64,000 nucleotides of DNA, taken from the sequence record NZ_CP041325.1. One strand, written 5' to 3'. The notes under the pieces were generated by a model. It was not told the origin of the DNA. It saw only the letters and a program-made list of their open reading frames with translations, and did not search any database. A program made the translations under genes and the position numbers. Origin of the DNA: a plasmid. Positions 8,311 through 31,630 of this stretch are shown one piece after another (position 1 is the first letter of the stretch; every line of letters starts with the position of its first letter).

Positions 8311-10359
8311 ATGAGGATTGCGACAGATATCGGAGGAACTTTTACAGATTTAGTATACGTAGACGATAACGGTGAATTTGGATATGCGAAATCCCATACG
8401 ACCCCACCTCAGTTTGAAAATGGGGTAATTGACGTCATCAAAAAGAGCAAAGTGACCGTTGATGGGATTGATATGTTTATCCATGGCTCAACAGTCGTAA
8501 TCAATGCGTTAACTGAAAGAAAAGGTGTAAAAGTAGGGTTGCTTACGACAAAGGGTACGAAAGATGTCTTAGAAATTGCCCGGGGAAACCGTCCGGATTT
8601 ATATAACTTCAAATATCAAAAGCCTGAAGCCTTTGTTGAGAGGCATCTACGTTTTGAAGTGGAAGAGCGACTGGATTACAAAGGAAATGTTATTACGCCA
8701 TTAGTTCAAGCGGATATTGAAAGAGCGATTGATTATTTTAAAAAAGAACAGGTAGAAGCCATAGCGGTCTGCTATTTGCATTCTTACTTGAATACCGAGC
8801 ATGAGCGAAAAACAGCTGAAATCATTAAAGGTCTCTGGCCGCAAGTGTCTGTCAGTGTTTCGAGTGATATCACTAAAGAATGGCGTGAGTATGAAAGAAC
8901 GAATACGACGGTTCTTAATGCATATGTAAAACCGACAGCCAACTCCTATATCGACAAGTTATCCAATAAGCTGAGTGAATTTGATATCAAAGATAATCGC
9001 TATATCATGCAATCCAATGGCGGGGTTACCACGTTCGATAATGCTAAAAACATACCGATCAACATGGTGGAATCAGGACCAGTGGCGGGGATTTTCGGCG
9101 CGGCGATCCTTGGGAAAATGATTGGGGAAGAAAATATCATCGCCTTTGATATTGGAGGAACAACAGCAAAATGTTCATTGATTAATCAAGGTGAAGTGAA
9201 AGTGACAACAGACTATTATATCGAGAAGTCCGAAAAAACAGCGGGGTATCCCATTAAAGTCCCTGTTGTCGACATCGTCGAAATTGGGAATGGCGGAGGT
9301 TCGATTGCTTGGATTGATGAATTAAACTCGTTGAAAGTTGGTCCGGAATCGGCCGGAGCATTGCCTGGCCCTGTCGCCTATGGGCAGGGAGGGACACAAC
9401 CTACTACAACAGACGCAAATTTGTTTGTTGGGCGCCTCTCTGAAAAGAATTTCGATTATAAAGTTGATATGGAGCAAGTCAAAGCTGCCATTGATAAAAG
9501 TGTAGCGAAGCCTTTTGAAACGACTACGGAAGACGGCGCACTGGGAATCATTGACATTGCCAATTCCAATATGCTGAATGCTTTAAAACTCATCTCCGTA
9601 AGAAAAGGGTACGATCCGCAGGACTTTACACTGTTGGCATTTGGCGGGGGAGGGCCGATGCATGCAGCCGAACTCGCAAGGGATCTCGGAGTGAAAAAAG
9701 TGATTATCCCAGTCTCTCCTTCTGTATTCTCTGCTTGGGGAATGCTGATGACGGATTTACGGCATGACTATATCCATACGTACATCAAATTATTAAACAC
9801 CATGGATTTGGCAGAGATGAATGGCAAATGGCAGGAGATGGAACAGAATTCCATAGAGCAGTTCAGGAAAGAAAATGTAAGCAAGGAGAAGATTGTCTTT
9901 AATCGCTTTGCAGACTTACGTTATATCGGTCAAGAGCATACGGTGAAAGTGCCGGTACCAACTGATGAGTGGGACGAGCTAGACATCGTAAAGGTCATGG
10001 AACAATTCCACAATATGCATGAGCAGGTGTACTCCTTTAACTTGCCGGAAAGTGCAGTTGAAATTGTAAACTTGCATCTGACTAGTTTTGGCATCGTGGA
10101 TAAACCGGCTATTTCAGAAATGAAAGAGAGCGGAGCAGCTGTATCTGAAGCAAAAATCGAAGAACGCAATGTCTATTTTCATCAAATTGGCTGGTATAAG
10201 ACCCCAATATATGACCGAGCGAAATTGGCTAGAGGACATGAAATAGAGGGGCCGGCCATTATCGAAGAACAATCCGCTTCTACGGTCCTCATGGAAGGAC
10301 AAAAATTGTCGGTTGATGCTTTTGGGAATTTGATTATTGAAACTGGGGTGGAATCATGA
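8311..10359 (+). CDS. hyuA: hydantoinase A / N-methylhydantoinase A / 5-oxoprolinase subunit A family protein
   Basis: Intact 682-aa ORF MRIATDIGGTFTDLVYVDDNGEF... with the expected length and N-terminal ATPase motif of the HyuA/OplA family. Its stop is translationally coupled (ATGA overlap) to the next gene. Confidence 0.8.
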   Translation: MRIATDIGGTFTDLVYVDDNGEFGYAKSHTTPPQFENGVIDVIKKSKVTVDGIDMFIHGSTVVINALTERKGVKVGLLTTKGTKDVLEIARGNRPDLYNFKYQKPEAFVERHLRFEVEERLDYKGNVITPLVQADIERAIDYFKKEQVEAIAVCYLHSYLNTEHERKTAEIIKGLWPQVSVSVSSDITKEWREYERTNTTVLNAYVKPTANSYIDKLSNKLSEFDIKDNRYIMQSNGGVTTFDNAKNIPINMVESGPVAGIFGAAILGKMIGEENIIAFDIGGTTAKCSLINQGEVKVTTDYYIEKSEKTAGYPIKVPVVDIVEIGNGGGSIAWIDELNSLKVGPESAGALPGPVAYGQGGTQPTTTDANLFVGRLSEKNFDYKVDMEQVKAAIDKSVAKPFETTTEDGALGIIDIANSNMLNALKLISVRKGYDPQDFTLLAFGGGGPMHAAELARDLGVKKVIIPVSPSVFSAWGMLMTDLRHDYIHTYIKLLNTMDLAEMNGKWQEMEQNSIEQFRKENVSKEKIVFNRFADLRYIGQEHTVKVPVPTDEWDELDIVKVMEQFHNMHEQVYSFNLPESAVEIVNLHLTSFGIVDKPAISEMKESGAAVSEAKIEERNVYFHQIGWYKTPIYDRAKLARGHEIEGPAIIEEQSASTVLMEGQKLSVDAFGNLIIETGVES

Positions 10360-12077
10360 ACAGTAATCCGTTTGCGGTAGAGGTAATTAAAGACTCGCTT
10401 TTATCCATAGGGGAAGAAATGTTTATCGCGTTGGCAAGAACCTCTATGAGTCCAATGTTTTACGAGGTATTGGATTATGCGTGCGGGTTAACAGATGCAA
10501 AAGGAAACTTGATTAGCCAAGGGAATGGGGTTACAAGTTTTATTGGCATGTTGAGCCCCATGGTTCAGCACGTATTAAACAAATACGACAACGGAAATAA
10601 ACTGGCAGAAGGCGATATTATTATCATCAATGATCCTTATGTAGGGGGAGGATCGCATTTATCCGACGTCGGTCTCGTGATGCCTATCTTTTATGAAGGT
10701 GAACTTATCGCTTTTTCAGCGAACAAAGGACATTGGACAGAAATAGGCGGGAAAGATCCAGGCTCTTTTACTAACAGTTCGACAGAGATTTATCAAGAAG
10801 GCTTGCAACTGCCGGGGATAAAACTTTTTGATGCCGGTAAAGTCAATGAAGGCATGGTGGAATTAATTGCGATAAATGTTCGGTTGCCTCAATTGTCTCT
10901 CGGTGATATGTGGGCGCAAGTAGCCGCACTTCGAACAGGCGACAAAAGGCTAAAAGAACTGTGTTCAAAGTATGGGGAAAACACGGTTGTCTCCACAATG
11001 GATAATCTCATCGAACAAGCGGAAAGATATTCATTAAGGGAATTGAAAAAACTGCCGCAAGGAACTTTTGAAGCACAGGATTTCATCGAAGGAGATCCAT
11101 CAAAAGGGGGGCCATATCCGATAAAAGTAAAAGTTACAATCACGGAAGATGAGTTTATTTGTGATTTTAGAGGCTCCCATGAACAAGTCATGAATCCAGT
11201 GAATTGTTCTTATTATGGATTATTGTCCAGTGTACGAGTAATGTTTTTGGCAATTATCCGGCCAAACTTCAATGTGAATGAAGGACTGTTTAAGCCTTTA
11301 AAAATCATCACGGATAAAAACTCAATCGTTTCAGCGACAAGGCCTTCACCGGTATCCATGAATTTTGAAGCAAGAATTGGCGGCGCAGAGCTGATTTGGA
11401 AAGCATTAGCTCCATTGCTTCCTGATCGTTTGACCGCTGGTCATCTATTGTCAGTTTGTTCGTTTCTACTGTCTGGAAAACATTCCGAAACGGAAGAACC
11501 ATTCCTCATTGTTGAACCAACTTTAGGGGGCTGGGGAGCTGGTGAAAATCAAGATGGACAACGAGGACAATTTTGTATGGGAAATGGCGAAACTTATAAT
11601 ATGCCAATCGAAATCGCTGAAGCCCGATATGGTGTAAGAGTGGAAAATTACCGGCTTCGATGCGACGGAGCTGGAGCGGGACAGTATATTGGCGGCTCAG
11701 GTGTCATCCGAGCCTATAAAACGTTAAGTGAAGGTCAAGAAATGACAGCTAGTTTTGGAAGACATCAGTTCCAACCTTGGGGAATGAATGAAGGGGAAAA
11801 CGGATCCTCCAGCTATATAAGAATCATAAAAGAAAATGGGGAGGTCCTTGGACCGTTTGGTGTCTCTTCCCGGTTGAAATTAGACGAAGGCGATACAGTT
11901 GAACTCGTTACGGCAACAGGCGGAGGATATGGAAATCCGGCGGAACGGGACGAATTACTCGTATTGCAAGATGTGAAAAATGGTTACATTACAGCTGAAC
12001 AAGCCAAGGAAAAGTACGGAGTTATTATAAGTGAAGACCTTGATGGCATAGCGGGTTATACGGAGTTGCGCCAGTAA
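10356..12077 (+). CDS. hyuB: hydantoinase B / oxoprolinase subunit B family protein
   Basis: Intact 573-aa ORF MNSNPFAVEVIKDSLLSIGEEMFIALARTSMSPMFYEVLDYACGL..., typical of the HyuB N-terminus. Confidence 0.8.
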   Translation: MNSNPFAVEVIKDSLLSIGEEMFIALARTSMSPMFYEVLDYACGLTDAKGNLISQGNGVTSFIGMLSPMVQHVLNKYDNGNKLAEGDIIIINDPYVGGGSHLSDVGLVMPIFYEGELIAFSANKGHWTEIGGKDPGSFTNSSTEIYQEGLQLPGIKLFDAGKVNEGMVELIAINVRLPQLSLGDMWAQVAALRTGDKRLKELCSKYGENTVVSTMDNLIEQAERYSLRELKKLPQGTFEAQDFIEGDPSKGGPYPIKVKVTITEDEFICDFRGSHEQVMNPVNCSYYGLLSSVRVMFLAIIRPNFNVNEGLFKPLKIITDKNSIVSATRPSPVSMNFEARIGGAELIWKALAPLLPDRLTAGHLLSVCSFLLSGKHSETEEPFLIVEPTLGGWGAGENQDGQRGQFCMGNGETYNMPIEIAEARYGVRVENYRLRCDGAGAGQYIGGSGVIRAYKTLSEGQEMTASFGRHQFQPWGMNEGENGSSSYIRIIKENGEVLGPFGVSSRLKLDEGDTVELVTATGGGYGNPAERDELLVLQDVKNGYITAEQAKEKYGVIISEDLDGIAGYTELRQ

Positions 12078-12100
12078 TACAGGATGAAAGAGGTAGAAGG

Positions 12101-12866
12101 ATGACTTTGAAAACCTTAGAAAATGCATTGGATATGCTATCTTACTTCACCACGGATAATCCGGAATGGGGATTAAGGGATTTAGCACGTGAAATGGAAA
12201 TTAATCATACCGTATTGCATCGGATACTAAAAACCTACGAGAAAAAAGGATACATCATTCAAAAATAAAAAAACGAAAAACTATGAGTTGGGCTTGAAGT
12301 TTTTGGAGTTTACGAGCGTAATCAAACACAAAATGAAATTATCCGAATTCATTCAGCCAGTCATGAAAGAACTAGCAAGTGCGATTAATGAAACCGTCTT
12401 TCTGACGTTGCAGGATGGAGATTATGGCGTAACGGTTGAGATTGCTGAATATGAACAACAGCTTAAATTCAATGTCACAATTGGGAGCCGAACACCGCTG
12501 TATGTAGGTGCTTCCTGCAAGACGATTATGGCTTATCTGCCAGAAGAAGAACAGCTTGAAATCATAAACAAAGGCATAAAAGTTTTTACGGATAAAACGA
12601 TGACGGATAAAGAAAAATTGTTAGCGGATTTAAAGGATATTAAAGAAAAGGGCTGGAGTTATACAAGAGGCGAGTACTCGGAAGCTGTTTTTGGCATGGG
12701 AGTCCCGCTATTTAACACATCTGGAAGAATCATCGGATCCGTAACCGCAGCAGGTCCCATTTATCGAATGTCTGAAGAAAAGGCTACAGAAACCTTGGCA
12801 ATTCTAAAGGAAAAAACGAGCATTATCCAGCAATACTTCAATAAGTTCGGTAACTTATACAATTAA
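12101..12866 (+). CDS. IclR-family transcriptional regulator (frameshift in an A-run near 12265-12280)
   Basis: N-terminus MTLKTLENALDMLSYFTTDNPEWGLRDLAREMEINHTVLHRILKTYEKKGYIIQK is an IclR HTH. The effector domain continues in ORF 12288..12866 (...TAAGPIYRMSEEKA...). Confidence 0.65.
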
Positions 12867-12893
12867 AAAATACGTTATTCGAGGAGACTTTAT

Positions 12894-14392
12894 ATGGCAA
12901 ATAACCCCCGAACTGAAGAAAAACATCCTACGATATTCAATCCAGCCATCTTAATTGTCATTGTATTAATGGCAGTAATTGGCGCTATGATTGGTGTTCA
13001 ATTGATCACTACTTTAGGGATTTCTGCAAATACATCGATTGTTGGAGCAGTCTTTGCAATGATCTTAGCGCGAATTCCCTTAAGATACTTGGTTAAATTC
13101 AAATCCATTCATAGTCAAAACCTTGTACAGACATCAATCTCTGCAGCGACTTTTGGGGCAGCAAGCAGTTTGATGTTGCCGATAGGTATACCGTATGTGC
13201 TGGATATGCCGCATTTGATTACGCCATTGTTTATTGGTGTAACGCTTGCAATGCTGGTAGATGCCGTTCTCCTTTACAAGATGTTCGATACAAAGGTTTT
13301 CCCGGCAAAGGTGCATGGCCGCCCGGCATTGCTACTGCTGAAGCGATTAAAGCAGGAGATGAAGGCGGAAGCCGAGCCAAATACTTACTGACTGGTATTG
13401 GAATTGGTATTGTTGGAGCACTGTTGAAAATTCCGATGTCGGCTTTTGGCGTTGCGTTTATCGGGAATATCTGGGCACTTACTATGTTCGGTATTGGACT
13501 TTTATTAAGAGGGTATTCGGTTCCGCTATTTGGGATTGATATCAATGAATTGTATATTCCTCATGGTTTCATGATTGGTGCGGGTATCGTCGCATTGGTA
13601 CAAGTAATAGTGTTGATTTTCAATAAAAAGAAGAAAGAGAACGTCCAGGAAGAGGAATTCTCAAAATCCAATAAAGAGCTGGGACAAGCTTTTGGCCTTG
13701 GATTTATTGCATACACAGCTATAGCCATTCTATTGGCGGTAATGGGCGGATTATACACCGATATGTCAATTGGAATGCTGATTGGCTTCATCTTTTTCGC
13801 CATGTTAGCTGCATTTGCCCACGAATTGATTGTAGGGATTGCGGCTATGCACGCTGGATGGTTCCCAGCTTTTGCTGTTGCCCTTATTACATTAATCATT
13901 GGGATCTTAATTGGATTCCCGGCAGAAGCTCTGGCATTGTTAGTTGGATTTAGTGCATGTACGGGTGTGGCCTTTGCTGATATGGGTTATGACTTGAAAA
14001 CGGGTTATATTCTTCGAGGGAACGGGAAAGATATGGAGTTTGAAAGAATGGGACGTCGGAATCAGCTTTTTGCAGGTTTTGTTGGTTTCATTGTTGCGGC
14101 TGTGGTCGTTTTGCTTTCATTCGAGGCTTACTTTTCTCAGGGCTTAATCCCTCCGGTGGATCTTGTCTACGCAGCGACAATAGAATCCGGCATTTCCAAT
14201 GGTATAGCCACGCAATTGGTACTTTGGGCAATCCCAGGCGCTATACTCCAGCTTCTCGGAGGTTCGAAAAGACAAATGGGAATTCTGTTTGCTACGGGTC
14301 TACTCCTATTAACACCTATTGCAGGTTGGGCTGTACTGACAGGTATTGTTTTGCGAATCATTATTATGAAAAAAAGGCAAAGGGAAATATGA
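12894..14392 (+). CDS. OPT-family (oligopeptide transporter-like) membrane transporter, one frameshift near 13300-13330
   Basis: Two polytopic membrane ORFs (12894..13391 and 13424..14392). The second is open upstream in the third frame (...GKGAWPPGIATAEAIKAGDEGGSRAKYLLTGIGIG...), which is characteristic of OPT transporters. Confidence 0.55.
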
Positions 14393-14528
14393 GCAACAAA
14401 TGACCATCACTGCTGCTGGTATTATTGCAGGAGATGCAATATATAGTTTTATGAACTCAATTCTAAAAGCTGGAAAATAATAAGCTTCTGGTTACTAGTT
14501 TATTATTTAAGTTTAATCTATATAAAAA

Positions 14529-14553
14529 ATACCGCCATTGGGCGGTTTTTTTG
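14529..14553 (+). terminator. rho-independent terminator (CCGCC-ATTG-GGCGG followed by T7)
   Basis: Sequence AAAAAATACCGCCATTGGGCGGTTTTTTT with flanking A and T runs. Likely bidirectional for the converging OPT and DUF3006 genes. Confidence 0.6.
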
Positions 14554-14602
14554 TTGTTACAAAGAATTAAGCCTGAGAATTGCTAAAGTTTTTATAAAAG
14601 AT

Positions 14603-14830
14603 TCAATCTTCCCAGAGCTCCTCCATCAGCTTTTCAATTTCTTTTCTCCGCTTCTCTGTCTCGTCTTTCAGGATGGTCGCCTGTTCATCCTTGATTTCGA
14701 CGAAGTCACCAGGCTTAGCATTCTCAGGGAAGATGCTTTTCTTGAAATCCTGGGGCTCTCCATTAACTTCGACCACAGCGATATCCTCCTCGAACCGGTC
14801 AATAATCCCTTTGATGATCTCCATGGTCAT
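14603..14830 (-). CDS. DUF3006-family small protein
   Basis: 75-aa ORF translationally coupled downstream of the MBL-fold gene, the usual DUF3006 pairing. Codon usage is GC-rich. Confidence 0.5.
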   Translation of the reverse strand: MTMEIIKGIIDRFEEDIAVVEVNGEPQDFKKSIFPENAKPGDFVEIKDEQATILKDETEKRRKEIEKLMEELWED

Positions 14831-15785: not shown

Positions 15786-15799
15786 AGAACAAGTGTTCT
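15786..15799. promoter_or_regulatory. LexA/Cheo SOS box AGAACAAGTGTTCT (GAAC-N4-GTTC)
   Basis: Exact match to the Bacillus-type LexA operator core GAAC-N4-GTTC. It lies 21 bp upstream of the polymerase start and overlaps the promoter -10/+1 region. Confidence 0.6.
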
Positions 15800-15819
15800 T
15801 TTCGGAAGGGGTGAAGGAT

Positions 15820-17076
15820 ATGGAGAGCCGGGAAGGGGGGGAACGCACGATTGCTTGCCTCGACATGCGCAGTTTTTATGCGAGTTGTGCGGCGGTCGAG
15901 GCCGGGATGGATCCGCTGGAAGCGTATATCGCCGTCGTCGGCAACCAGGAGCGCAAGGGCAGCGTTGTGCTTGCGGCCTCCCCGCGGATGAAGCAGGAGT
16001 TCGGGGTCCGTACCGGCACCCGGCTGTTTGAAATCCCGGGCGACCCGCGGATCCGGCTCCTCGAGCCGAAGATGGGCTTCTTCCTGAAGGTGTCGATGGC
16101 CATCACGGACCTATTGGCGGAGTTTGTGCCGAAGGACTGCATCCACGTCTACAGCGTCGACGAGAGCTTCATCGACTTCACCCGTGTGGAGAGCTTCTGG
16201 GGCGGGGCAGAGGCGCTCATTCGCCACATCCAGGACGCGCTTGTCCGCCAATTCGGGCTGCCGTCTGCGGTCGGGGTGGGGCCGAACATGCTGCTGGCGA
16301 AGCTCGCACTCGACCTAGAGGCGAAGAAGAGCGGCTATGCCGAGTGGACGTATACCGACGTGCCGAAGAAGCTGTGGCCGGTCGCGCCCTTGAGCAAGAT
16401 GTGGGGCATCGGGTCCCGCACTGAACAGACCTTGAATGGCATGGGCATCTTCTCGGTCGGCGACTTAGCCTGCACGGATGTCGCAAAATTGGAAGGTCGC
16501 TTCGGCATCATGGGACACCAGCTCTATCAACATGCCAATGGCATCGACCTGTCGGAGCTCGGCGCGCCGCTCATCGAAGGGCAGGTCAGCTACGGCAAGG
16601 GGCAGATCCTCTACCGGGACTATACCGAAGTGGAAGACATCCTGACGATCATCCTGGAGATGTGCGAGGACGTCGCGATGCGCGCGCGGCAGGCCGGACG
16701 GGCGGGGCGCACGGTCCAGCTGGGGGTCGGCTACAGCAAGACAGCGTTCGGCGGCGGCTTCTCCCGCTCGCGTTCAATCGAGGAGGCGACGAACGAGACG
16801 CTGGCGCTCTACCGGGTCTGCCAGGAACTGTTCCGGGAACATTACCTCGGCAAACCGGTCCGCCAGATTTCGCTGTCCCTCAGCAACCTGGAGGAAGAGT
16901 CATCGATGCAGCTGAGCCTGTTCGAGGCCCAGAAATGGGAGAACCGCAAGCTCGGGGCGGCGATGGACCAGATCCGGAACCGGTACGGCTATTCGGCGAT
17001 CTACCGGGCGGTGTCCGGGACCGAAGCTGGAACGGCCATTGCCCGGACACGCTTGATTGGCGGGCATCAGAAATAA
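15820..17076 (+). CDS. Y-family DNA polymerase (DinB/UvrX/YqjW-like translesion polymerase)
   Basis: ORF from ATG 15820 (MESREGGERTIACLDMRSFYASCAAVE...) with RBS AAGGGGTGAAGG. It carries the Y-family motifs (DMRSFYAS, SVDESFIDFT, little-finger region), a GC-rich codon bias and a LexA box upstream. Confidence 0.8.
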   Translation: MESREGGERTIACLDMRSFYASCAAVEAGMDPLEAYIAVVGNQERKGSVVLAASPRMKQEFGVRTGTRLFEIPGDPRIRLLEPKMGFFLKVSMAITDLLAEFVPKDCIHVYSVDESFIDFTRVESFWGGAEALIRHIQDALVRQFGLPSAVGVGPNMLLAKLALDLEAKKSGYAEWTYTDVPKKLWPVAPLSKMWGIGSRTEQTLNGMGIFSVGDLACTDVAKLEGRFGIMGHQLYQHANGIDLSELGAPLIEGQVSYGKGQILYRDYTEVEDILTIILEMCEDVAMRARQAGRAGRTVQLGVGYSKTAFGGGFSRSRSIEEATNETLALYRVCQELFREHYLGKPVRQISLSLSNLEEESSMQLSLFEAQKWENRKLGAAMDQIRNRYGYSAIYRAVSGTEAGTAIARTRLIGGHQK

Positions 17077-17700: not shown

Positions 17701-18180
17701 AATGATATATAATGGTGCTCTTTCGACGATATTCTTATGTCTCCGTAAGAGATTACCTTCTGAAGGTTCTGAAGGTAATGATAAACTGAAATACCGCACC
17801 TGCAAGGTAACAAGGCAAAGAATTCCCGGCTATTTGTGGTCCAAGCTGCTCGAAGTCCGGGAAAAGCAGGCCATCCATCGGCTCTTGAAAAAGGATGCCC
17901 ACTTACAAGAACTTCAATTGTTCATCAGCGAGTTCTAGCAGCTCATGCGACTACAGCGAGAATGCCTGCATTGAATACGAAGAAAAAAAGCGGAATCAAG
18001 GAACTGAAGCAATTTGGACGCTACTTGCAATCAGATTGGCAAGCTGTTGAAAAATTCCCTGATTCATCGCTGGAGCAATGGTTTGGTAGAAGGTCATGTA
18101 AATCGCATTAAAGTGATCAAATGGTAAAGGTATGGCCGGGCTAACTTTAATCTGCTTCGCCTTAAAATTTTATACCGTTC
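17700..18180 (+). mobile_element. degraded ISL3-family transposase C-terminal remnant
   Basis: Translations across the frames give ...LQSDWQAVEKFPDSSLEQWFG... and ...VEGHVNRIKVIKW.RYGRANFNLLRLKIL, matching the conserved C-terminus of ISL3 transposases (...WSNGxVEGxxNRLKxIKRxxYGRAxFxLLRxRIL). The N-terminal two thirds are absent. Confidence 0.55.
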
Positions 18181-18337
18181 CAATTAATACTTTCCTAAAA
18201 AACAAGCTAACCATTCACCAGCTGCCGACAATCATCTTCACCAAATTGCGGAAGAACCAATAATAAACCGGTGTTAACAAATATTATTTTCAATTTTAAA
18301 AAATAAGTTTAATACATCGAGTGCTATATATTTTTAG

Positions 18338-18375
18338 GAACCTAAACAACCGTGTTTAAGTTCCTTTTTTGCTGT
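18338..18375 (+). terminator. hairpin (AGGAACCTAAAC/GTTTAAGTTCCT) followed by a T-run, putative terminator
   Basis: 12-bp near-perfect inverted repeat with a 6-nt loop, then TTTTTTGCTG. Confidence 0.35.
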
Positions 18376-18603
18376 TATTTAGCATTTGGTTATAGAAATT
18401 AGAAATAATAATTACCTTCTTTGATCTATCGAATGGTGCAAATTCACTTTAAATAATTTTCTTAATTTTTTCTCAAAACCTCAAAAATAAATCTCTTTTC
18501 GATGTGAATACTTGTATAATTTAGGTAATAATAAATATTTTTAAAGACTCATAAATTAGATGAATTAATTTAATTAAAATACTATTAAATATATAGGGGG
18601 TTA

Positions 18604-20208
18604 ATGATGGAGAGCATAAGAATAAGAAATTTAAGAAGTTTAAAAGACACAGGGGAGGTTGAACTCAAACCGTTAACTTTATTAGTGGGGAAAAATAGCT
18701 CAGGAAAAAGCACCTTTTTAAGAACCTTCCCATTATTCAAGCAAACTATAGAAACTAAAACTAATGAACCGATTCTTTGGTATAGCAGTAGATACGTTGA
18801 TTTTGGAAGTTTTCATGAAAGTCTTAATAAGATAACAGCTAAAGAAGAGGAGGAAAAGAAAAATATTAGTTTTGATTTCAAATTTAGTATCCCAAGTTCA
18901 GTTGTACAAATGGGAACTGTTGATATATTAAGCTACTATTCTTTAAGACCAAGTAGAATGAGTAGAATTTATAATTATAATTACAGCAATAGTAACCGTA
19001 AAACACCATTTAAAATAAGCATTGAAACGAATCAAAAGTCATTATCTAAATTTACTATTTCTATAGAAGATCATTTACTTGAAATGACTTTAAAAGAAGA
19101 TGAAAAATTTAGTCAAGTAGGACTTAAAATAAACGGAGTACCTATTTCAGAAACTTCTAGTTTAGTAGCTCGATACGCTAAAGATTACTCGCAGTTATTA
19201 CCTTTAATCTTTAGTGACAAAAGTAATTCTTCTGAAAATAATTATTTTAGAGATGAGTTATTTAAAATTTTTCAAAGCTTGGCTTATACTTCTACGAGAA
19301 GAAATACGATTTCAGAGTTTATTGAGGACATAAAGTTTGGTGATAAATCTGAAATTATTAATAATATAAAAAGTCAAGATACTACAGCTAATGTTCTATT
19401 AGAAAATTTAAAAGCATTAGAGTCCGACAATGAGGTAATGCAACAAATTATAATAAATTACATAGGTATGAATATAAATCCTATAATAACAATGTGTAAT
19501 AATTATATAGAACAGTATTTCTCTTCAATTAATTACATCGCTCCTATTAGAGCGAGTGCCGAAAGGTATTACAGAATTCAAGGTCTTTCTGTAGATGATA
19601 TCGATCCACAGGGCGAGAATATACCAATGATTTTCAATAATATGAGTGATATTGAAAAAGAAAATTATAACCATTGGTTATTTGGTAATTTTGGATTTCA
19701 AATATCAGCAAGCCCTACGGAAGGACATTCATCAATAAGAATAAAATATAGTAATGGAGAAGAGGTTAACTTAGCAGATACAGGCTTCGGGTATTCTCAG
19801 ATTCTCCCAATTACTTTAGTTCTATGGCAGACTTCAAAACAAGAACGAAAAGACATATTTGCATATAGTGGATTATATAAAGCTGATTACAATTTTTTTA
19901 ATTTAGTGATTGAGCAGCCTGAACTACATTTGCATCCAGCTATTCAGGCTAAATTAATCGATGCATTTATAAAGATAATTATGCTATGTAAAGAAAAGAG
20001 TATTGATATTAAAATTATTATCGAAACACATAGTGAAACAATGATTAATAGAATTGGATATATAATAGCAAAAAATATAGAGGAATTTACCGAGGATTTA
20101 GTTAAGGTAATTATTTTTGAAAATGATGAGGTCTTTGATACTAAATTAAATGTAAGTACATATTCGGAAAACGGGTATCTAAAAAAATGGCCTTTAGGTT
20201 TTTTTTGA
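18604..20208 (+). CDS. AAA_15/AAA_21-type ABC ATPase with DUF3696-like C-terminus (OLD/PARIS AriA/AbiL-type ATPase component)
   Basis: Intact 534-aa ORF. The Walker A site is at LLVGKNSSGKSTFLRTF. There is a long low-complexity insertion. The C-terminus has the NLVIEQPELHLHPAIQAKLIDAF... (Walker B/D-loop) and ...IIIETHSETMINR (H-loop) motifs. Confidence 0.75.
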   Translation: MMESIRIRNLRSLKDTGEVELKPLTLLVGKNSSGKSTFLRTFPLFKQTIETKTNEPILWYSSRYVDFGSFHESLNKITAKEEEEKKNISFDFKFSIPSSVVQMGTVDILSYYSLRPSRMSRIYNYNYSNSNRKTPFKISIETNQKSLSKFTISIEDHLLEMTLKEDEKFSQVGLKINGVPISETSSLVARYAKDYSQLLPLIFSDKSNSSENNYFRDELFKIFQSLAYTSTRRNTISEFIEDIKFGDKSEIINNIKSQDTTANVLLENLKALESDNEVMQQIIINYIGMNINPIITMCNNYIEQYFSSINYIAPIRASAERYYRIQGLSVDDIDPQGENIPMIFNNMSDIEKENYNHWLFGNFGFQISASPTEGHSSIRIKYSNGEEVNLADTGFGYSQILPITLVLWQTSKQERKDIFAYSGLYKADYNFFNLVIEQPELHLHPAIQAKLIDAFIKIIMLCKEKSIDIKIIIETHSETMINRIGYIIAKNIEEFTEDLVKVIIFENDEVFDTKLNVSTYSENGYLKKWPLGFF

Positions 20209-20223
20209 GCCGGAGGGAATTTA

Positions 20224-21427
20224 ATGTTATTAAAGATTGATAGTTCATTAGTTGATTATTTAAAAGATAATTCCTCAAAGCCCAATTTAATAAATAACGA
20301 AGTTCAGGCTTTAAATAATCTCTCTATAGCACACAGGGACAAAAAACATATTTTATTTGGATCTTTAGATGTAGTAGAATTTTTAAAAGATTTTAAACCC
20401 TTAGATGATACTGCGCTAGGAATTTTTAGCAATTTATTTAAAAAGTTTACTTTCATGGGAATATATGAAGAAATGTTTGATAATCAAATATTAATTAAAA
20501 GTAGAGAACATAAGTTTTTAAAGAAGTTTGTTAAAGAGAAAGTAATATTTGAAATTCCTATAACTGATTTTTTTAGATATAGAGAGTATTAGTAGAACTG
20601 CACTAATTGGAGAAGACAGTACTGACTGTGAATTTTATGAAGGATTAGCAAAACAGTATATTACAGAAAATTATGGGATTTCTGCTATTAATTTAAACTT
20701 TCACCATGTGAATGGAGGGGGAGTAAATACTTGGAAATCCTTGCGTTATTACAGTGAAAATAAAAAAATCTCACTTACTATAACTGATAGTGATAAGCGC
20801 TACCCAACTGGTAACGTAGGAGAGACTTTAAGAAAATTGAGGACTGAATATAATAAACATAAAAATAATACGATAACAGATTTAGTGGAGTTAAAAGTAA
20901 GAGAAAAAGAAAATTTAATTCCTCCTTCAGTTTATTTGTATTGCTGCAACAGTTCTGATAAAAGTAGATTGGAAAACTTCATGTTATTAGAGGATTCTAA
21001 TAAGCATTCCGAAAAATTATTTTATTTAGATTATAAAGAAGGGTTAAACGTTAAGAGCTATAAACGAGATTCTCAATTGCAAGGATATATAGAAGAAATG
21101 GTGAAAGATTTTCCGCACTTAGCCACTTGTAGTTTGGAAGATATAGATTCCTTATCTGACGATTATCGTATTATTGAAGGTATAAGTATGAATGTTTCAG
21201 ATTATTTTAGTGTAGGAGTTTTTTACGAAGGTTTAGAAAAAGAATTAGAAGATAAATTAATGATAGAAAAAATACCAGCAGAAGTTATAGATGATTTGCG
21301 TAATAGTATAGACAAAAAAAATAAAATGTTTAGACATATGCCAGAAAGCTTTCAAGTTCATTTGGAGGAAATTTGCAAAAAGCTTATTGATTGGGGATGT
21401 GCTAATAGTTCTTTTATTGCGACCTAA
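20224..21427 (+). CDS. TOPRIM/DUF4435-like putative nuclease partner (AriB/OLD C-terminal-domain-like). Either one gene split by a +1 frameshift at a T-run near 20566-20574, or two genes.
   Basis: ORF 20224..20592 continues in frame 2 from 20564 (..LIFLDIESISRTALIGEDSTDCEFYEGL...ISLTITDSDKRYPTGNVGETL...) into ORF 20708..21427. The conserved Glu (GEDSTD) and DxD (TDSDK) match a TOPRIM-type catalytic signature. It starts 16 bp after the ATPase stop with RBS GGAGGGAA. Confidence 0.5.
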
Positions 21428-21785
21428 ATACTTTGAAAAAGCATTTAAAAATATTTATGAAAGTATTACTTAAATTGTAAATTGATTTGTCAAGTGTATA
21501 GTGATTACGTGAATTTTTTTCATAAAAGATGGTTTATAAGAGGCCGAAAAGAAGATTCCAATTTCTTCTCGGCTACTTCTAATTTAGTCTCAAAATTTAT
21601 ATCAAAAGCACTCTATTATAATATTGCTTAAGAATGATCCAGCTAAGAAAAGGAAGGACATCGATTCTTATAACGAATCTAATACAGTATCTATATTTAA
21701 GTGTTTATACAATAAAGTTATTTTTTGCTTAGTCTCGGCTGCGTACTTACTCGAACGAACCCTGGAATCGCAAGCTCGTCCAACT

Positions 21786-24700
21786 TTATCGTAAAAGTAT
21801 GGTGTGAGTTACTTTATCTATGATTTGCTGTGAAATTTCTCGATCGAAATCTGCTATCTCTGGTAATATAGCATTAATATTTGCTAAATCTATTTCTTCA
21901 AAGTTCGATATTGCTTCAGCAATTATAGTTGATTTCTTGAGTAAAAATAATCTCAATGAATTGGGGTCTTCATTTATTAAGTGGAAAATAAGAATATGCA
22001 GAGCTTGCCATTCTAATCGATCTTTTGAGTAAGAATCTCTATGCATAGGAATATCAAAATCATTTTCTATATAATACTTAACTAGCGAAGGAGAAAAAGC
22101 GAACTGATAAAGGTTTATTTTCTCAAATTTCTCTTTATTACTGTAAAGAAAATTATCAATTATTCGAACGTGCTTTTTATCAAGATACAAAAAGAGGAAC
22201 TCAAGTATTTCACTATGAAAGCTCGCCCAAACATTATGCTCATCAAATTTAGTTTTTATTCGGGTTAAATCTATAGCTTTAATAAGCTCAGAGTATTTAC
22301 CTGAATCAAACTTTCTCAGAATCTTATAGAAACTAGATAAGTTGTGCCAACTGCGAAAGGGAACTGTTACTAATTCTTCAGCCAATTGCTTGGGTTCAAT
22401 AAAACTAATGATTTTTTCACCAATGACTCTTTGATCTTTTTTAATATAATCTCTTTTTTCGCTTAAAGAGTTGAATCCCATTACTATTGCTAAAAATTTG
22501 AAATCTAGCATATGCCAAGCGTTAATTGAATGTTGTTTAAATGCATTGCGGAAATTGTCAGACATCACGTGAAATAATTTAATGCCATAAAGTCTGTCGT
22601 AGTTAAAAATGTTCCCAATGAAATCAACTAAGTCTTCGAAATCTAACTGGTTATTTTCCAATAAAAGTAGTTCTGTTTCAATCTGGTTTTTGTCTAAAAG
22701 CTTGAAAAATTCCTTTGCTCTTTCAATTGATAAAAGAAGACCTAACCTAGAAATAAAATAACTCCAGTGATATAAATCTTCTTTCTTTAAATTAGAAAAT
22801 CTATTAGCAATTTCAGTTATATTTAAGTTGTTACCAAAATCTTTTGCTTTAATTCTATCCGAATTATACATATCATTTATTATAGTGCCCAATGAATAAG
22901 CCGTTATACTATTTACATTTTCAATTTCTTTATGAATTGTTGAAGAAAAATGATATATATCAAAATACTCGGTTTTACTAAACTTTGTAAAAGTATTGGC
23001 GAAGTATAAAGCATGAGTAGTGAGAGTTTTTTTCTTCTGACGACAAGCTTTCTTCAATGATATGGTAAACTTCGTCTTTCGAAATAATATAAGGCATTCT
23101 AAAATGCAGTTCACTAGTGAAAATTGTATTCATAAACCATACTTTTCCTAAAAGCGGATTATTTAGAGATATCATTTCATTGTGTACTATTTGCTCATAT
23201 TTTTTTCTATTTTCTGTGTCATTATCGAATATGAACTTCAATTGTCTTTTAGCTGCTTCATAGTGAATCATTCTAAGGAAGAAACCATCAATTAACCTTT
23301 TCTTTCGTAGTGCTTTTAAATTTTTATTTAGCCATTCTTCATCTTCAGAAAAGTATTCTTTTACGTTCTGTATTAACCAATTTTCATTTACTGTATTATC
23401 TTTGGTTATTATCTGTTTTAGAGCCAGTAAAAAAATTAATCTTTGTGAGTTGTCTAGATCTTTTGATTTAAAGTAGTTATCTTTAGTAGTTTTCCACCCG
23501 CCTCTAATTACATAATTAAAGGTCCAAAGATTGTCCTCTTTCGAGGCGGCATCTATTCTTTGATCGAACGATTCTTGCAGAAAGTAATTTCCTAAGTCTC
23601 CATCTATTTTTGAAATAATATGTGAAACTGTTTTTTCATTTTTTCTGTAAAATTCACTAATGCAAGCGATATTCTCATTATTAGAAATTGAAACTGTAGC
23701 GGAATCAACTTCTATATCTTCAGTAACTGTCAAAATGATCTTTTGATAATTACTGCTTTTTTCTTGTAAGATTTGCAAAATCGAACTGGGTAGAATATGT
23801 CCATCATCAATGATATATATTGCTTTAGGATTGCTGGGTAAAGAAAAATTATCGATATCTGTAAAATCATTGGTTTTGAAACGTAAAACTTCATATCCAT
23901 GTTTTAAAAAATGAAAAGCGATTTGGTAACAAGAAATGGATTTACCAGATCCGGGTTTTCCTTGAAGAATAACAAAGTTATTCAACTCTAAAACTTTAAT
24001 AGCTTTTTTGAACTTGGGGCATTTCGGGACAAACGCTCACGTCTTGAGGGGTAAGTTTGTACCCTAAAACGGCTCTTCCAATACTATCATTTTGATTTTT
24101 AAAATTTAAGTACTCCCATTTATTATAATTATTCTCGTCTATCAAATTTTCAACTAATTCCTCAAAAAATTCCGACGCCGATAAATTAATCACTCTTTCA
24201 TCAGTTGAAAATGGGGAAACTCTATAGACTTTCCATTTATCTTCTAAAGGCGAAATCAATTCTTCTACAATTTTTGCATCGCTTTCTGAATAGCCAACGA
24301 TAACTAGAGTTCTAGGTCTTTCCATTGCTAGTAGATTAATATGTTTTTGTTCTTCGTCACTTATATTTCCTGGAGAGTTTGGAAGTACCCACTCAGAATT
24401 TAAATTTAAGACATCTCCGTGTGGTTTGATCAAATTTATTTTACTGTCGTTTATTCGGGTACCATATAATTCAGACCATGACATTTCTAATAAGCTATCC
24501 CAATTAAAAGAGACAATTAGCTCAAAAAATTTTCATGAACTAATTTAGCTATATTATTATGTATACGAGGGGCAACGGTTATTTTACTGTTAACCTTGCT
24601 AAACTTGCTTTTAAATAAACTTACCGCATCTTCATTCTGTTCAATATATGAAAACGCCCTTTTGATTTTTTACAAAATCTTCTCCTATTCTACTCTTTGT

Positions 24701-24886
24701 ACTTCCAATGCCTTTAAACTTCTGATCGATACTAGGAAAAGAACTTACTACCTCCCAAACAATAGGAGCAAGCTGGTTACCTAGTGGCATTCCAGGTTCA
24801 AAGGAAACTCCCGCCCCAATAACTACGACAGCATTATTAACTCTTATTTCATTAATTATTGAGGTTAAATTATTAACAGACTTCAT
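21786..24886 (-). CDS. SIR2-domain / STAND P-loop NTPase / C-terminal helical-repeat protein (Avs type-5-like antiviral STAND), about 1030 aa, interrupted by about four homopolymer frameshifts
   Basis: N-terminal SIR2-like Rossmann region (VVVIGAGVSFEPGMP ... LIKPHGDV ... IVGYSESD) spans 24886-23996 with two shifts at T-runs. At the A6 run 24003-24008 the SIR2 frame (..CPEMPQVQKSY*) and the NTPase frame (..KAIKVLELNNFVILQGKPGSGKS, Walker A; AIYIIDDGH, Walker B) are both open. This argues for one fused ORF. The C-terminal 442-aa helical domain (23114..21786) overlaps the NTPase ORF by 136 nt in another frame. Confidence 0.6.
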
Positions 24887-24984: not shown

Positions 24985-25603
24985 TTATAAAGGAGTTGCT
25001 GTCTCTGCTTCGATTTCTCTCACTAATTTATAAAAACTAGTTTTTTTAACTCCAGTTTCTTGCATGGCTTCAACTGCTGTTAATTCTCCAGATTTCCATT
25101 TTCTATAAACCTCTTTAAATTCTTCTGAAACAAGAACAGGAGTCCTGCCAAACTGAATGCCGTTTTTCAACGCTAAGTCGATTCCTTCGCGTTGCCGTTT
25201 TCGTATGCGTTCCCGTTCTTCTTCTGCCATCCAGGAAAGAATCTGCAAAACCAAATCTGCAATGAATGTTCCCATACTATCTTTATACTGCGTCGTATCG
25301 AGTAACGGCATATCCAGCACCACGATATCCGCTTCGATTTTTTTTCGTCAGGTCATTCCATTCCTGGAGGATCTCTTCTTTGTTCCGGCCAAACCGATCC
25401 AGCGAGTGGATATATAAAATGTCGCCTTTCCGGATAATCCGTTTGAGCAGCTGATAGTTCGCTCGCTCGAAATTCTTACCACTTTGCTTGTCCAAATAAA
25501 TATCCCGTTCAGTGATGCCCATTTTTCTCATTGCTTCCAATTGACGGCCTTCGTTTTGATCTTTGCTGCTGACACGTATGTAGCCAAATTTGCGATGTTC
25601 CAT
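24985..25603 (-). CDS. serine recombinase (resolvase/invertase family), one frameshift at a T-run near 25325
   Basis: N-terminus MEHRKFGYIRVSSKDQNEGRQLEAMRKMGI...IYIHSLDRFGRN has the catalytic Ser and the resolvase motif. The C-terminal piece (...GRTPVLVSEEFKEVYRKWKSGELTAVEAMQETGVKKTSFYKLVRE) is the HTH domain. Confidence 0.75.
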
Positions 25604-25639
25604 AATTCACCTCGAAAACGATTGTTTCCTCTCATTATA

Positions 25640-25775
25640 CCTGAAAAGCGTTCGTAAAAGTGTCTGCAATTTCGCGAACGTTCGTAAAGTCATTTGACAC
25701 GTTTACGAACGCTGTTTTAGCCGTTTAGCCCTTTTCAAAGCGTTCGTAAAAGTGTACTTTTACGAACGCTTTAAA
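25640..25775. repeat. res-like array of CGTTCGTAAA-containing inverted repeats immediately upstream of the resolvase gene
   Basis: Four elements are read from the sequence. GCGTTCGTAAAAGTG lies at 25648-25662. The palindrome CGAACGTTCG lies at 25676-25685. An inverted pair CGTTCGTAAA(G)/(C)TTTACGAACG is separated by about 12 bp at 25679-25711. A perfect 16-bp inverted repeat AAAGCGTTCGTAAAAG/CTTTTACGAACGCTTT with a 4-bp centre lies at 25737-25772. This arrangement is typical of a three-subsite resolvase res. Confidence 0.5.
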
Positions 25776-26116
25776 AAGTATAGTGGCATGTATAAAAAGG
25801 GAATAAAGGAGAATTCGGCGAATTACCTGTTTAAGGAAATAAACCAATTGTTAAAGAAGACAACTAGGGGCGAGGGGAGTGATTCGTTTTATTCGATATG
25901 AAGAGGATCAAATGTATTTAGAATTCACAGAAATAGAACCGGCTGTAAGTTTAACGGAATTTGTAAAATATCTATAAGATGAAGAAATCACAAGACGAAA
26001 GGATGCCTTGGCGATGGCTTTCAAAAAGCAAAAAACAGAAAGAAATCCAGGCAGTCTTCCGAACTTTGCTCGCCTGAAATCATGAATTGAAAAATTTGCC
26101 GAAAGGATGTGATGAT

Positions 26117-26515
26117 ATGACGATTAACGTATTTATCAGCTATGACTACACCAGCGATAAAGAGTATGCATCCTTATTAAAAGCTTGGGCTGAAAACGAT
26201 GCCGAACATTTTAAGAACATTAATTTTATTGATGGTTCTAGCGATTTTTCAAGAGAATCTACTAAAGTGAACGCCTTCAAAAATTCAATTTCAAGAAGAA
26301 TGAATGCGTGTGATAAAATACTTGTTTTAGTTGGAAAAGAAACCTACAAAAGTGATTGGTGTAAATGGGAGATCAAGAAAGCTGAAGAACTTGAGCTTGA
26401 TTTTGCAGCAGTTAACATTGAACATGCAAATGCATCTCCCATCAGCTTGTACGGAAAAGGAGTAAAAAGGGCGAGAAGTTTTACTGAAGCAGCCATTGAA
26501 AGCGTCTTAACGTAA
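26117..26515 (+). CDS. TIR-domain protein (ThsB-like / DUF1863 MTH538-type TIR)
   Basis: 132-aa ORF from ATG 26117 (RBS AAAGGATG): MTINVFISYDYTSDKEYA...CDKILVLVGKETYKSDWCKWEIKKAEE. The FISY.., ..ILVLV... and S.WC..EI signature marks a bacterial TIR-like domain. The ORF track starts at TTG 26087. Confidence 0.65.
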   Translation: MTINVFISYDYTSDKEYASLLKAWAENDAEHFKNINFIDGSSDFSRESTKVNAFKNSISRRMNACDKILVLVGKETYKSDWCKWEIKKAEELELDFAAVNIEHANASPISLYGKGVKRARSFTEAAIESVLT

Positions 26516-30157: not shown

Positions 30158-31630
30158 CTATTCGGATTCAATTACAAATTCAATTGTCTCCCGGTCGGAA
30201 ATCGTCGGAAGTTGATAGGATTGCTGGTAGTTTTCATGGCCTTTGCCGGTGATTACAACCCAATCGCCCGTCTTGCTTTCGTTGATTGCTTTTTGAATGG
30301 CGACTGTCCGATCCGGAATTATGCTTCCCTTTTCATTACCGTAAGTCTCATTTAGTCGTTTTAAGTCGTCCACCATCTCGATTTGCGACACCGTGTTCAG
30401 GTCATCCAATGTCAAATGTACCGGTCACTCCATTCTGCGCTTATCGACAGCATGGCGCTTCGCTTGCTAGGGTCCCGGTCCCCACGAAAGCCAAAAACAT
30501 GGATAATCCGTTTGGCGCCCTGTAATTTTACGGTTTCCAAGCAGTAAGAAACGGCATCCGGTGTATGGGCATAGTCCACCACGACGGTTGAGCCATTGGT
30601 TAGTTTGGAAACTTCAAAACGTCCTTCGACCCCCCTTGAAATGTGGAACGGAATCCAAAAGCTTTTCTTTGGGAATCCCCAGAAGCCGTGAAGTTCCATA
30701 CGCCATCAAGGTGTTGTACATATTGTGCATGCCGTTCATCGCTGAGTCCATTTGGTACGTTTCGTTCCTTTCCTCCACCAGCATCGTGGAGGTCGTTGGG
30801 GTAAAGTAGACAACGCGCAGATCGCAGTCAGAGGACCTGCCAATCGCATACACCGATTTCCCTTCCCTTTGCAGGGTTTCCGTAAGCTTTCGCCCCCACA
30901 CATTATCCGCATTCACCACAGCGGTTCCGTTCGCTTTCAACTGATGGAACATCAAAAGCTTCGTCTGGAAGTACTCCGCCATGGAGCCGTGGTAATCCAG
31001 GTGCTCCGGATGAAGATTGGTAAACAAGCTGTAATCAAATGTAATACCTGCCAAACGGTGTTGGGCCAATCCGTGAGAAGAGACCTCCATGATGATGACC
31101 TCATCGCGGCTGAGGGATAATAGCTTGTGCAAAGCCAGCGAACTGGGCGTGGTGTTGGCGCTTTTCGTCTTCTGACCATTGATCACATTTTGGATGGTCC
31201 CGATGACAGCACAAGTCATCCCGTTGTTTTCTAGAAAATGCTGCAGCATGTAACTTGTGGTCGTTTTCCCATTGGTTCCTGTTATGCCAATCATTACTTT
31301 CTCTTTGGACGGATGCCCATAGAAATTCCTCGCCATTATGCCAAGGGCTTTGCGGCTATTCTCCACTTGAAGATAAGGGATGGATAGGCCGGTGATTTCC
31401 TGTTCTCCCACGACCACTAAAGTGCCTTTTTCAATTGCTTGTTCAATATACTGATGGCCATCACTTTTAAAGCCTGCAATGGCGACAAAGACGAATCCTG
31501 CCTCGACATCTCTGGAATTATCGGCAATGCCTTGGATATCTAACTCTAACGTGCGGGAATTCAACCGATTAATCAAATCAATTTCCTGCAAAAGTTGCCT
31601 TATTTTCATTGATTGGGTAACCTCTCTCAA
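30158..31630 (-). CDS. Mur-ligase family protein, MurE-like (UDP-MurNAc-tripeptide synthetase paralog), three ORF pieces
   Basis: The N-terminal domain reads ...DSRDVEAGFVFVAIAGFKSDGHQYIEQAIEKGTLVVV and the P-loop reads IGITGTNGKTTTSYML. The C-terminal pieces (..VVVDYAHTPDAV.., ..VVITGKGHE..) are in other frames. Confidence 0.65.

What the first reader, a model, noticed from the sequence alone, without database searches (positions are those of the whole stretch)
21786..24886. SIR2-STAND NTPase (Avs type-5-like) reconstructed across about four homopolymer frameshifts
Reading through the indels gives a single roughly 1030-aa protein with three parts. The N-terminal part is a SIR2-like NADase-type domain (GAGVS...GMP, KPHGD, VGYSESD). 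The central part is a P-loop NTPase (GKPGSGKS, hhhhDDGH). The C-terminal part is a 440-aa all-helical domain. This tripartite effector/NTPase/sensor layout is that of antiviral STAND proteins. At the A6 run 24003-24008 the SIR2 and NTPase frames are both open, which supports a fusion rather than two genes.
Basis: partly seen in the sequence, partly recalled or inferred. Interest (0 to 1): 0.7.

Follow-up and report, generated by a model that had tools for sequence, protein, structure and literature searches.

The report
Avs5-like SIR2-STAND defence gene, mis-sequenced
This is one intact-looking anti-phage gene for a roughly 1071-residue protein (a SIR2 NAD-destroying domain, a STAND ATPase switch and a helical sensor) that only looks broken because the assembly miscounts runs of A and T; it is a distant, untested relative of the known Avs5 defence proteins.

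Summary
Four consecutive minus-strand ORFs (24886-21786) are pieces of one gene. A fifth frameshift at 21796 was missed. The corrected CDS runs 24886-21668, gives 1071 aa, and is 92% identical without gaps to an intact 1070-aa Planococcus protein.

All five disruptions are single-base indels in or next to A/T runs. The same error type occurs across the window: 20 indels in 14.5 kb against a 98.7%-identical short-read contig, breaking housekeeping genes. That error rate predicts 5.25 indels in this CDS, and 5 are seen. dN/dS against the intact ortholog is 0.15. So this is an assembly artefact, not a pseudogene.

The fusion is real. Every full-length relative is a single 1060-1110-aa protein, and the disputed A-run lies just after an invariant linker motif (CPxxPQV).

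"Avs5-like" is supported:
- Pfam nSTAND3 scores above its cut-off.
- A profile-profile alignment to the EfAvs5 clade gives 94% probability over SIR2 plus the nucleotide-binding domain.

The helical/winged-helix region and the sensor do not align with EfAvs5.

This is a new member of a known kind and only moderately interesting. No function was tested.

The parts
21668..24886 (-). Whole SIR2-STAND gene. The corrected CDS gives 1071 aa plus a stop at 21670-21668. As assembled it is broken by five single-base indels.
   Evidence: After correction it is 92.3% identical to P0001 over 1068 aa with no gaps.
24122..24886 (-). SIR2-like NADase effector domain (about aa 1-255). Motifs: GAGVS at 24817-24803, N128/D130 (SFNWD) at 24505-24497, H156 (KPHGD) at 24421-24419, VGYSESD at 24298-24278.
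24001..24121 (-). Conserved linker (about aa 256-295) ending in CPEMPQV (24031-24011). The disputed A-run at 24004-24009 directly follows it.
   Evidence: C286 and P290 are invariant. The linker is retained in relatives with HNH or other N-terminal domains.
23686..24000 (-). Nucleotide-binding domain of the STAND NTPase (about aa 296-400). Walker A GKPGSGKS at 23961-23938, Walker B IIDD at 23814-23803.
   Evidence: Pfam nSTAND3 at 50.3 bits on P0001 and 37.9 bits on the window fragment, cut-off 27.2. PDB profile hit to EfAvs5 residues 375-478.
23086..23685 (-). Helical and winged-helix part of the NOD module (about aa 401-600), containing the family motif FNYVIRGGW. Boundaries are approximate.
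21671..23085 (-). C-terminal all-helical repeat (alpha-solenoid) domain, about aa 601-1071. This is the presumed sensor.
24671..24671 (-). Indel 1: extra A in an A-run (A5 in the ortholog, A6 here).
24524..24525 (-). Indel 2: one base missing directly after the T6 run.
24004..24009 (-). Indel 3: extra A in the A-run at the SIR2/NTPase junction (A5 in the ortholog).
23027..23033 (-). Indel 4: extra A (A6 in the ortholog, A7 here).
21793..21796 (-). It creates the false stop at 21786.
24985..25603 (-). Serine recombinase (resolvase) gene directly upstream, itself split by an extra A at 25345. It travels with the SIR2-STAND gene in a shared 4.25-kb block.
   Evidence: Pfam Resolvase on both halves. 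An intact 205-aa ortholog sits in the same position in L001. The block is 90.9% identical in nucleotides, with unrelated flanks.
25644..25778 (.). Three res-like inverted-repeat sites with core AAAGCGTTCGTAAAAGT, upstream of the resolvase. The shared block begins at the outermost palindrome (25731-25778).

Best explanation
The region encodes one single-gene anti-phage immune protein of the antiviral STAND (Avs) type. It is a distant relative of Avs5. It has an N-terminal SIR2 NADase effector, a central nSTAND3 NOD-type NTPase, and a C-terminal alpha-solenoid sensor of about 470 aa.

Proposed mechanism, by analogy with EfAvs5 and PaAvs5 (inferred, not tested here):
1. The protein is held inactive.
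2. The helical sensor binds a phage protein made during infection.
3. The NOD module drives oligomerisation or filament formation.
4. This brings the SIR2 domains into an active arrangement.
5. The SIR2 domains hydrolyse NAD+ and stop phage replication.

The five frameshifts are homopolymer-length errors of the assembly. The real gene is most likely intact. In this genome and in one Planococcus genome the gene sits in a 4.25-kb block with a serine resolvase and res-like sites, inside a low-GC defence island.
For: Shown here:
- One gene: intact 1067-1090-aa orthologs exist, and the corrected CDS is 92.3% identical without gaps.
- Artefact: the window differs from a 98.7%-identical short-read contig by 20 indels in 14.5 kb, nearly all single bases in or next to A/T runs, inside conserved housekeeping genes. 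The per-run error rates predict 5.25 indels in this CDS and 0.88 in the resolvase. Observed counts are 5 and 1. dN/dS is 0.154 overall, and 0.10, 0.12 and 0.21 for the three parts.
- Modularity typical of Avs: about 36 of the top 150 family representatives keep the linker, NTPase and sensor but carry another N-terminal domain. In two of them (P0136, P0147) it is an HNH nuclease above the Pfam cut-off.
- Single-gene system: six homolog loci share no conserved neighbour. Their contexts are variable and rich in defence or mobile-element genes.

From the literature: EfAvs5 N141, K379 and D426 are required for defence, and filaments activate the NADase (PMC11897194). PaAvs5 depletes NAD+ after sensing the phage protein JADA (PMC12931631).
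Against: - No functional data exist for this family. NADase activity, trigger and oligomeric state are all inferred.
- Pfam SIR2_2 is below its cut-off (E 0.004-0.008).
- The similarity to EfAvs5 covers only SIR2, linker and the nucleotide-binding domain. The helical/winged-helix region and the sensor do not align. Global TM-scores to 9JAP are low (0.17-0.22).
- The arginine of the EfAvs5 'TTR' motif appears not to be conserved here (LTVTE). This comes from inspecting the alignments.
- No raw reads are available, so the artefact explanation for the frameshifts is statistical rather than direct.
Confidence: 0.8

Rival explanations
1. The gene is a true pseudogene, inactivated by real frameshift mutations in this strain.
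For: The sequence as given carries five frameshifts. Defence genes are often lost or decay. No reads are available to check.
Against: The same homopolymer indel signature breaks housekeeping genes across the window, measured against a near-identical short-read contig. The expected number of such errors in this CDS is 5.25, and 5 are observed. There are no in-frame stops, no large deletions, and dN/dS is 0.15 once the five bases are corrected. The neighbouring resolvase and the ATPase partner gene are split the same way.
Confidence: 0.08
2. There are two or more separate genes: a stand-alone SIR2 protein followed by a separate NTPase-sensor protein that starts at the TTG at 23985. They would work as a multi-gene system.
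For: As assembled, the SIR2 frame ends in TAA at 23996-23998, and a TTG start lies 11 bases downstream.
Against: Every full-length relative is fused, including the 92%-identical ortholog. The Walker A would start 9 residues from that TTG start, whereas the nSTAND3 profile and the invariant CPxxPQV linker extend upstream into the SIR2 frame. The site is an A-run carrying one extra A relative to the ortholog.
Confidence: 0.03
3. It is part of a Thoeris-like system, acting as the SIR2 effector (ThsA-like) for the TIR gene at 26087-26515.
For: A ThsB_TIR gene (Pfam 68.7 bits) lies about 1.2 kb from the gene's start, beyond the resolvase. ThsA proteins carry SIR2 domains, and SeThsA is a structural match for the SIR2 part.
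Against: No SLOG or Macro sensor domain is present. Instead there is a P-loop STAND module. The TIR gene lies outside the block shared with Planococcus and is absent from all six homolog contexts examined. It is on the opposite strand and separated by a resolvase and its res-like sites.
Confidence: 0.04
4. The frameshifts are real slipped-strand (phase-variable) switches that turn the defence gene on and off.
For: All the indels lie in or next to homopolymer tracts.
Against: Five independent shifts would all have to revert together. The tracts are short (3-7 bases). The same pattern is seen in unrelated housekeeping genes.
Confidence: 0.01

Closest known systems
Avs5 / AVAST type 5 (SIR2-STAND), e.g. 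EfAvs5 (PDB 9JAP) and PaAvs5 (PDB 9NC9)
   Different: About 220 aa longer than EfAvs5 (1071 against 849 aa). The helical/winged-helix region and sensor show no detectable sequence similarity. Identity in structural alignments is 11-15%. The relatives that carry a species name are mostly Bacillota (Planococcus, Bacillus, Peribacillus, Rossellomorea, Clostridium), plus single hits from Streptomyces and Holophagales, whereas the tested Avs5 are from Proteobacteria. SIR2_2 is sub-threshold here but precomputed for the EfAvs5 clade. Trigger unknown.
Pfam PF20720 nSTAND3 NTPases (NCBI name 'nSTAND3 domain-containing NTPase')
   Same: Scores above the curated cut-off, and NCBI already names close relatives this way.
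   Different: Only the first half of the profile (positions 5-73 of 155) is matched. The Pfam family says nothing about effector or sensor.
DSR2 (defence-associated sirtuin 2)
   Same: N-terminal SIR2 NADase plus a long helical C-terminal sensor. Strong Foldseek matches, E about 5e-8.
   Different: DSR2 has no P-loop NTPase between the effector and the sensor. This protein has Walker A and B motifs and a NOD fold.
Human SAMD9/SAMD9L
   Different: 11% identity. SAMD9 has additional SAM, AlbA_2 and OB domains and uses a nuclease effector (PMC12680541).

Membership tests
Antiviral STAND (Avs) architecture in general | Three parts in a single polypeptide: N-terminal effector, central STAND NTPase, C-terminal repeat sensor | tested here: met
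   Intact orthologs and the corrected CDS. AF2 model and fold matches.
Antiviral STAND (Avs) architecture in general | Central domain belongs to the STAND/NOD clade of P-loop NTPases (NBD, helical domain, winged helix) | tested here: met
Antiviral STAND (Avs) architecture in general | Effector swapping on a conserved NTPase-sensor core | tested here: met
   About 36 of the top 150 representatives match only profile positions from about 236-258 to 1075 and carry a different N-terminus. It is HNH in P0136 and P0147.
Antiviral STAND (Avs) architecture in general | Confers phage resistance and is activated by a phage protein | not testable with these tools
Only the defence-island context supports it.
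Avs5 (AVAST type 5) | SIR2 (sirtuin-fold) effector with the NAD-binding GAG motif and catalytic Asn/His | tested here: met
Avs5 (AVAST type 5) | NTPase of the nSTAND3 type (PF20720), as reported for PaAvs5 and precomputed for the EfAvs5 clade | tested here: met
   PMC12931631.
Avs5 (AVAST type 5) | Detectable homology to a characterised Avs5 over effector plus NTPase | tested here: met
   hhalign of A1 against A2 gives 94.3% probability and E 1e-7 over 353 columns. hmmsearch of the PDB gives 9JAP at E 3.8e-6.
Avs5 (AVAST type 5) | Homology of the helical/winged-helix region and C-terminal sensor to a characterised Avs5, or placement inside one of the four published Avs5 clades | tested here: inconclusive
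   No alignment beyond the NBD against the EfAvs5 clade. Sequences of the PaAvs5 and EcAvs5 clades were not available, so no phylogeny was built.
Avs5 (AVAST type 5) | Recognition by a curated defence-system model (PADLOC) | tested here: inconclusive
   No Avs model hits the family. The positive control failed as well: an EfAvs5-like protein hits only ThsA SIR2 models. The negative result therefore carries no weight.
Avs5 (AVAST type 5) | NAD+ depletion on infection; filament or oligomer-dependent activation | not testable with these tools
   Known for EfAvs5 and PaAvs5 (PMC11897194, PMC12931631). Inferred here.
Thoeris ThsA | SIR2 (or other effector) fused to a SLOG/Macro signal-binding domain and encoded next to ThsB | tested here: not met
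   There is no SLOG or Macro domain; a P-loop STAND follows the SIR2 instead. The nearby ThsB_TIR gene is not a conserved neighbour.
DSR2 | SIR2 directly followed by a helical sensor, without an NTPase | tested here: not met
   Invariant Walker A and Walker B motifs and a NOD fold lie between SIR2 and the helical domain.

The most novel reading that the evidence does not exclude
This family of about 1070-aa proteins may be a separate Avs family, or a fifth Avs5 clade. The relatives that carry a species name are mostly Bacillota. The family would have its own large alpha-solenoid sensor that recognises a phage protein different from the known Avs5 triggers (T7 gp1.7, jumbo-phage JADA). Its conserved linker-NTPase-sensor core is combined with SIR2, HNH and at least two unidentified effectors. 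Here it also rides on a small resolvase/res cassette that moves between Planococcaceae-like genomes.
Probability: 0.4. Interest if true: 0.45.

Novelty: new member of a known kind. Interest (0 to 1): 0.3.

Why it matters
For the scan, the main lesson is technical. This window comes from an assembly with about 1.4 homopolymer indels per kb. Any apparent pseudogene or "frameshifted" gene in it, especially in the AT-rich island, should be read as a sequencing artefact until polished.

Biologically, the locus adds a Gram-positive, longer-sensor relative to the Avs5/SAMD9-like group of SIR2-STAND immune proteins. The experimentally studied members are all from Proteobacteria. The family has about 1,175 representatives at 50% identity and shows effector swapping. 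It could therefore be a useful comparison for asking how sensor identity sets phage specificity. It does not open a new category.

Tried and rejected
- Megablast of the 3.3-kb region against the E. coli genomes and against plasmids found nothing.
- PADLOC on the fragments and on intact homologs gave no Avs hit. I first read this as evidence against Avs5. I rejected that reading after the control showed that PADLOC v2 does not call an EfAvs5-like protein either.
- NCBIfam gave nothing useful.
The full-length EfAvs5-like sequence was recovered through tblastn on plasmids instead.
- hhalign against that single sequence was weak: 81% probability over 82 columns. An alignment of the clade was needed.
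- Pfam could not identify two of the alternative N-terminal domains, in P0137 and P0123. From their motifs they look like a PD-(D/E)xK nuclease and a caspase-like protease, but that is only my reading.
- The viral-contig scan found one weak partial hit, so the family is not typically phage-borne.
- The promoter and terminator scan was no better than shuffled sequence.
- The Thoeris, two-gene, pseudogene and phase-variation readings were considered and rejected. The reasons are given under the rival explanations.

Full report
**1. What is in the sequence**

On the minus strand, four ORFs follow one another at 24886-24641 (81 aa), 24484-23996 (162 aa), 23985-22978 (335 aa) and 23114-21786 (442 aa). 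A three-frame read shows a further 50-aa open stretch at 24669-24520 that bridges the first two. It also shows that at the SIR2/NTPase junction the downstream frame is already open from 24036, while the upstream frame stops at 23996-23998. The DNA here is 28-30% G+C, set in a window that is mostly 40-52% G+C.

**2. One gene, and five indels rather than four**

A search with the stitched protein found intact relatives of 1067-1090 aa. The closest is a 1070-aa protein of Planococcus sp. S3-L1 at 93% identity. Others come from Bacillus cereus (64%), Peribacillus, Rossellomorea and Clostridium (about 31%).

I fetched the Planococcus contig and aligned its DNA. A 4.25-kb block is shared at 90.9% nucleotide identity (window 25772-21525). 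Within the CDS the window differs by these single-base indels:
- 24671: extra A.
- 24524: one base missing after a T6 run.
- 24009: extra A.
- 23033: extra A.
- 21796: extra T.
- 21677: an in-frame 3-base difference.

It creates the false stop at 21786. Correcting the five bases gives a 1071-aa protein that ends at 21668. It is 92.3% identical to the Planococcus protein over 1068 residues without a gap.

**3. The frameshifts are assembly errors**

An intact window ORF (hydantoinase B) has an exact protein match on a short-read (Logan) contig. That contig covers window 350-14816 at 98.7% identity. The two sequences differ by 20 indels, almost all single bases in or next to A/T runs and mostly an extra A in runs of 5-7. 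Several lie in stretches with almost no substitutions. They split a transporter, an M24 peptidase and an OPT transporter that are intact on the short-read contig.

Elsewhere in the window, single Pfam domains are divided between overlapping ORFs. Examples are the P-type ATPase and the Mur ligase.

I took the per-run error rates from those 14.5 kb and applied them to the homopolymer content of the SIR2-STAND CDS. The expected number of indels is 5.25, and 5 are observed. For the resolvase the expected number is 0.88, and 1 is observed.

After correction, dN/dS against the Planococcus ortholog is 0.154. By part it is 0.10 for SIR2, 0.12 for the NTPase and 0.21 for the C-terminal region. There are no other lesions. 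I therefore put the pseudogene reading at under 10%. No reads are available, so this conclusion is statistical.

**4. Fusion or two genes**

The A-run at 24004-24009 follows directly after a linker whose Cys286 and Pro290 (CPxxPQV) are invariant in 31 relatives. The nSTAND3 profile match on the intact ortholog starts at residue 290, upstream of the TTG that would otherwise start a separate NTPase gene.

A search of 1.84 billion representative proteins found 1,175 relatives (430 at E <= 1e-30). The full-length ones are single proteins of about 1060-1110 aa. About 36 of the top 150 match only from the linker onward and carry a different N-terminal domain. In P0136 and P0147 that domain is an HNH nuclease above the Pfam cut-off. 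So the linker belongs to the NTPase-sensor core, and the effector is a swappable module. Both points argue for a fusion.

**5. What the parts are**

- *SIR2.* The residues GAGxS, N128, D130 and H156 are invariant. Pfam SIR2_2 is only sub-threshold. The AlphaFold2 model (mean pLDDT 88.5, pTM 0.64) superposes on sirtuins and SIR2 NADases as follows:
- *C-terminal region.* The region after the nucleotide-binding domain is predominantly helical and continuously so from about residue 555. Its matches are generic alpha-solenoids such as importins. TPR identity is not shown.

**6. Relation to Avs5**

- The family profile's best PDB sequence hit is 9JAP (E 3.8e-6). The paper identifies 9JAP as the EfAvs5 filament (PMC11897194).
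- 9JAP is also the top Foldseek hit (E 2.6e-12). The PaAvs5 filament 9NC9 is at E 5.7e-8.
- I recovered an EfAvs5-like gene from an E. coli plasmid, collected its clade and aligned 30 members. hhalign between the two family alignments gives 94.3% probability and E 1e-7 over 353 colinear columns. These run from the GAG motif through the catalytic Asn, VGYSxxD, the linker, Walker A and Walker B.
- Nothing aligns beyond the nucleotide-binding domain.
- PADLOC gave no Avs hit for this family. It also fails on the EfAvs5-like control, so that negative result is uninformative.
- Published Avs5 clades share only 18-21% identity with one another (PMC12931631). A distant extra clade is therefore plausible. 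I could not test clade membership.

**7. Context**

Six homolog loci share no conserved neighbour. Their neighbours include restriction enzymes, AAA_15/21 ATPase pairs, PIN proteins, a Cap4-STAND protein, transposases and topoisomerases. That pattern fits a single-gene defence system that moves between variable islands.

In this window, and only in the closest relative, a serine resolvase lies directly upstream. Three res-like inverted repeats lie upstream of the resolvase, and the shared block starts at the outermost palindrome. The host is a Bacillales bacterium. The best match for a housekeeping protein is Peribacillus at 88%.

**8. Mechanism**

By analogy with EfAvs5 and PaAvs5, the chain of events would be: the sensor binds a phage protein, NOD-driven assembly follows, the SIR2 NADase is activated, NAD+ is depleted, and infection is arrested. 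The domain identities and catalytic residues are shown here. Every step of activation is inferred.

**9. Verdict**

The frameshifts are artefacts. This is a new, untested member of a known kind, and close relatives are already deposited in NCBI as "nSTAND3 domain-containing NTPase". Interest is modest.

Noticed in passing
whole window; measured on 350-14816: The assembly carries systematic homopolymer-length errors. Against a 98.7%-identical short-read contig there are 20 indels in 14.5 kb, mostly an extra A in A5-A7 runs. They split housekeeping genes such as the transporter at 2045-3389, the M24 peptidase at 6023-6828, the OPT transporter at 12894-14392, the P-type ATPase at 37328-39218 and the Mur ligase at 30412-31630.
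   Followed up: yes
24985-25778: A serine resolvase gene is split by an extra A at 25345. Three res-like inverted-repeat sites (core AAAGCGTTCGTAAAAGT) lie upstream of it. The 4.25-kb block shared with Planococcus sp. S3-L1 (90.9% nucleotide identity, unrelated flanks) begins at the outer palindrome 25731-25778. This may be a small resolvase-borne mobile defence cassette.
   Followed up: partly
18604-21427 (+): A second defence candidate lies in the same low-GC island. A 534-aa ATPase matches PADLOC NsnB (E 1e-45), PDC-M55A and AriA. It is followed by a partner gene of about 400 aa (20224-21427) that is split at a T7 run (20567-20573). The partner has only a faint PDC-M55B hit.
   Followed up: partly
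26087-26515 (+): A lone ThsB-type TIR gene (Pfam ThsB_TIR, 68.7 bits) has no recognisable ThsA next to it. It lies outside the block shared with Planococcus.
   Followed up: partly
18000-24000: This stretch is 28-30% G+C, whereas the rest of the window is mostly 40-52% G+C. That is consistent with a horizontally acquired defence island.
   Followed up: no
relatives P0136, P0147, P0137, P0123 (not in the window): These relatives share the linker, NTPase and sensor core but have HNH (two cases) or unidentified N-terminal domains in place of SIR2. About a quarter of the top 150 representatives are such effector-swapped forms.
   Followed up: partly
L082:1939-4488 (E. coli plasmid p30EVA2-1): PADLOC-DB v2.0.0 does not label this EfAvs5-like protein as Avs5. 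It hits only ThsA SIR2 models. PADLOC-negative results for SIR2-STAND proteins should therefore not be read as evidence against Avs5.
   Followed up: yes
15793-17076 (+), 51665-53285 (-): A Y-family (UmuC/DinB-type) polymerase gene and a CopC/CopD copper-resistance pair are also in the window. The CopC/CopD pair also looks fragmented.
   Followed up: no
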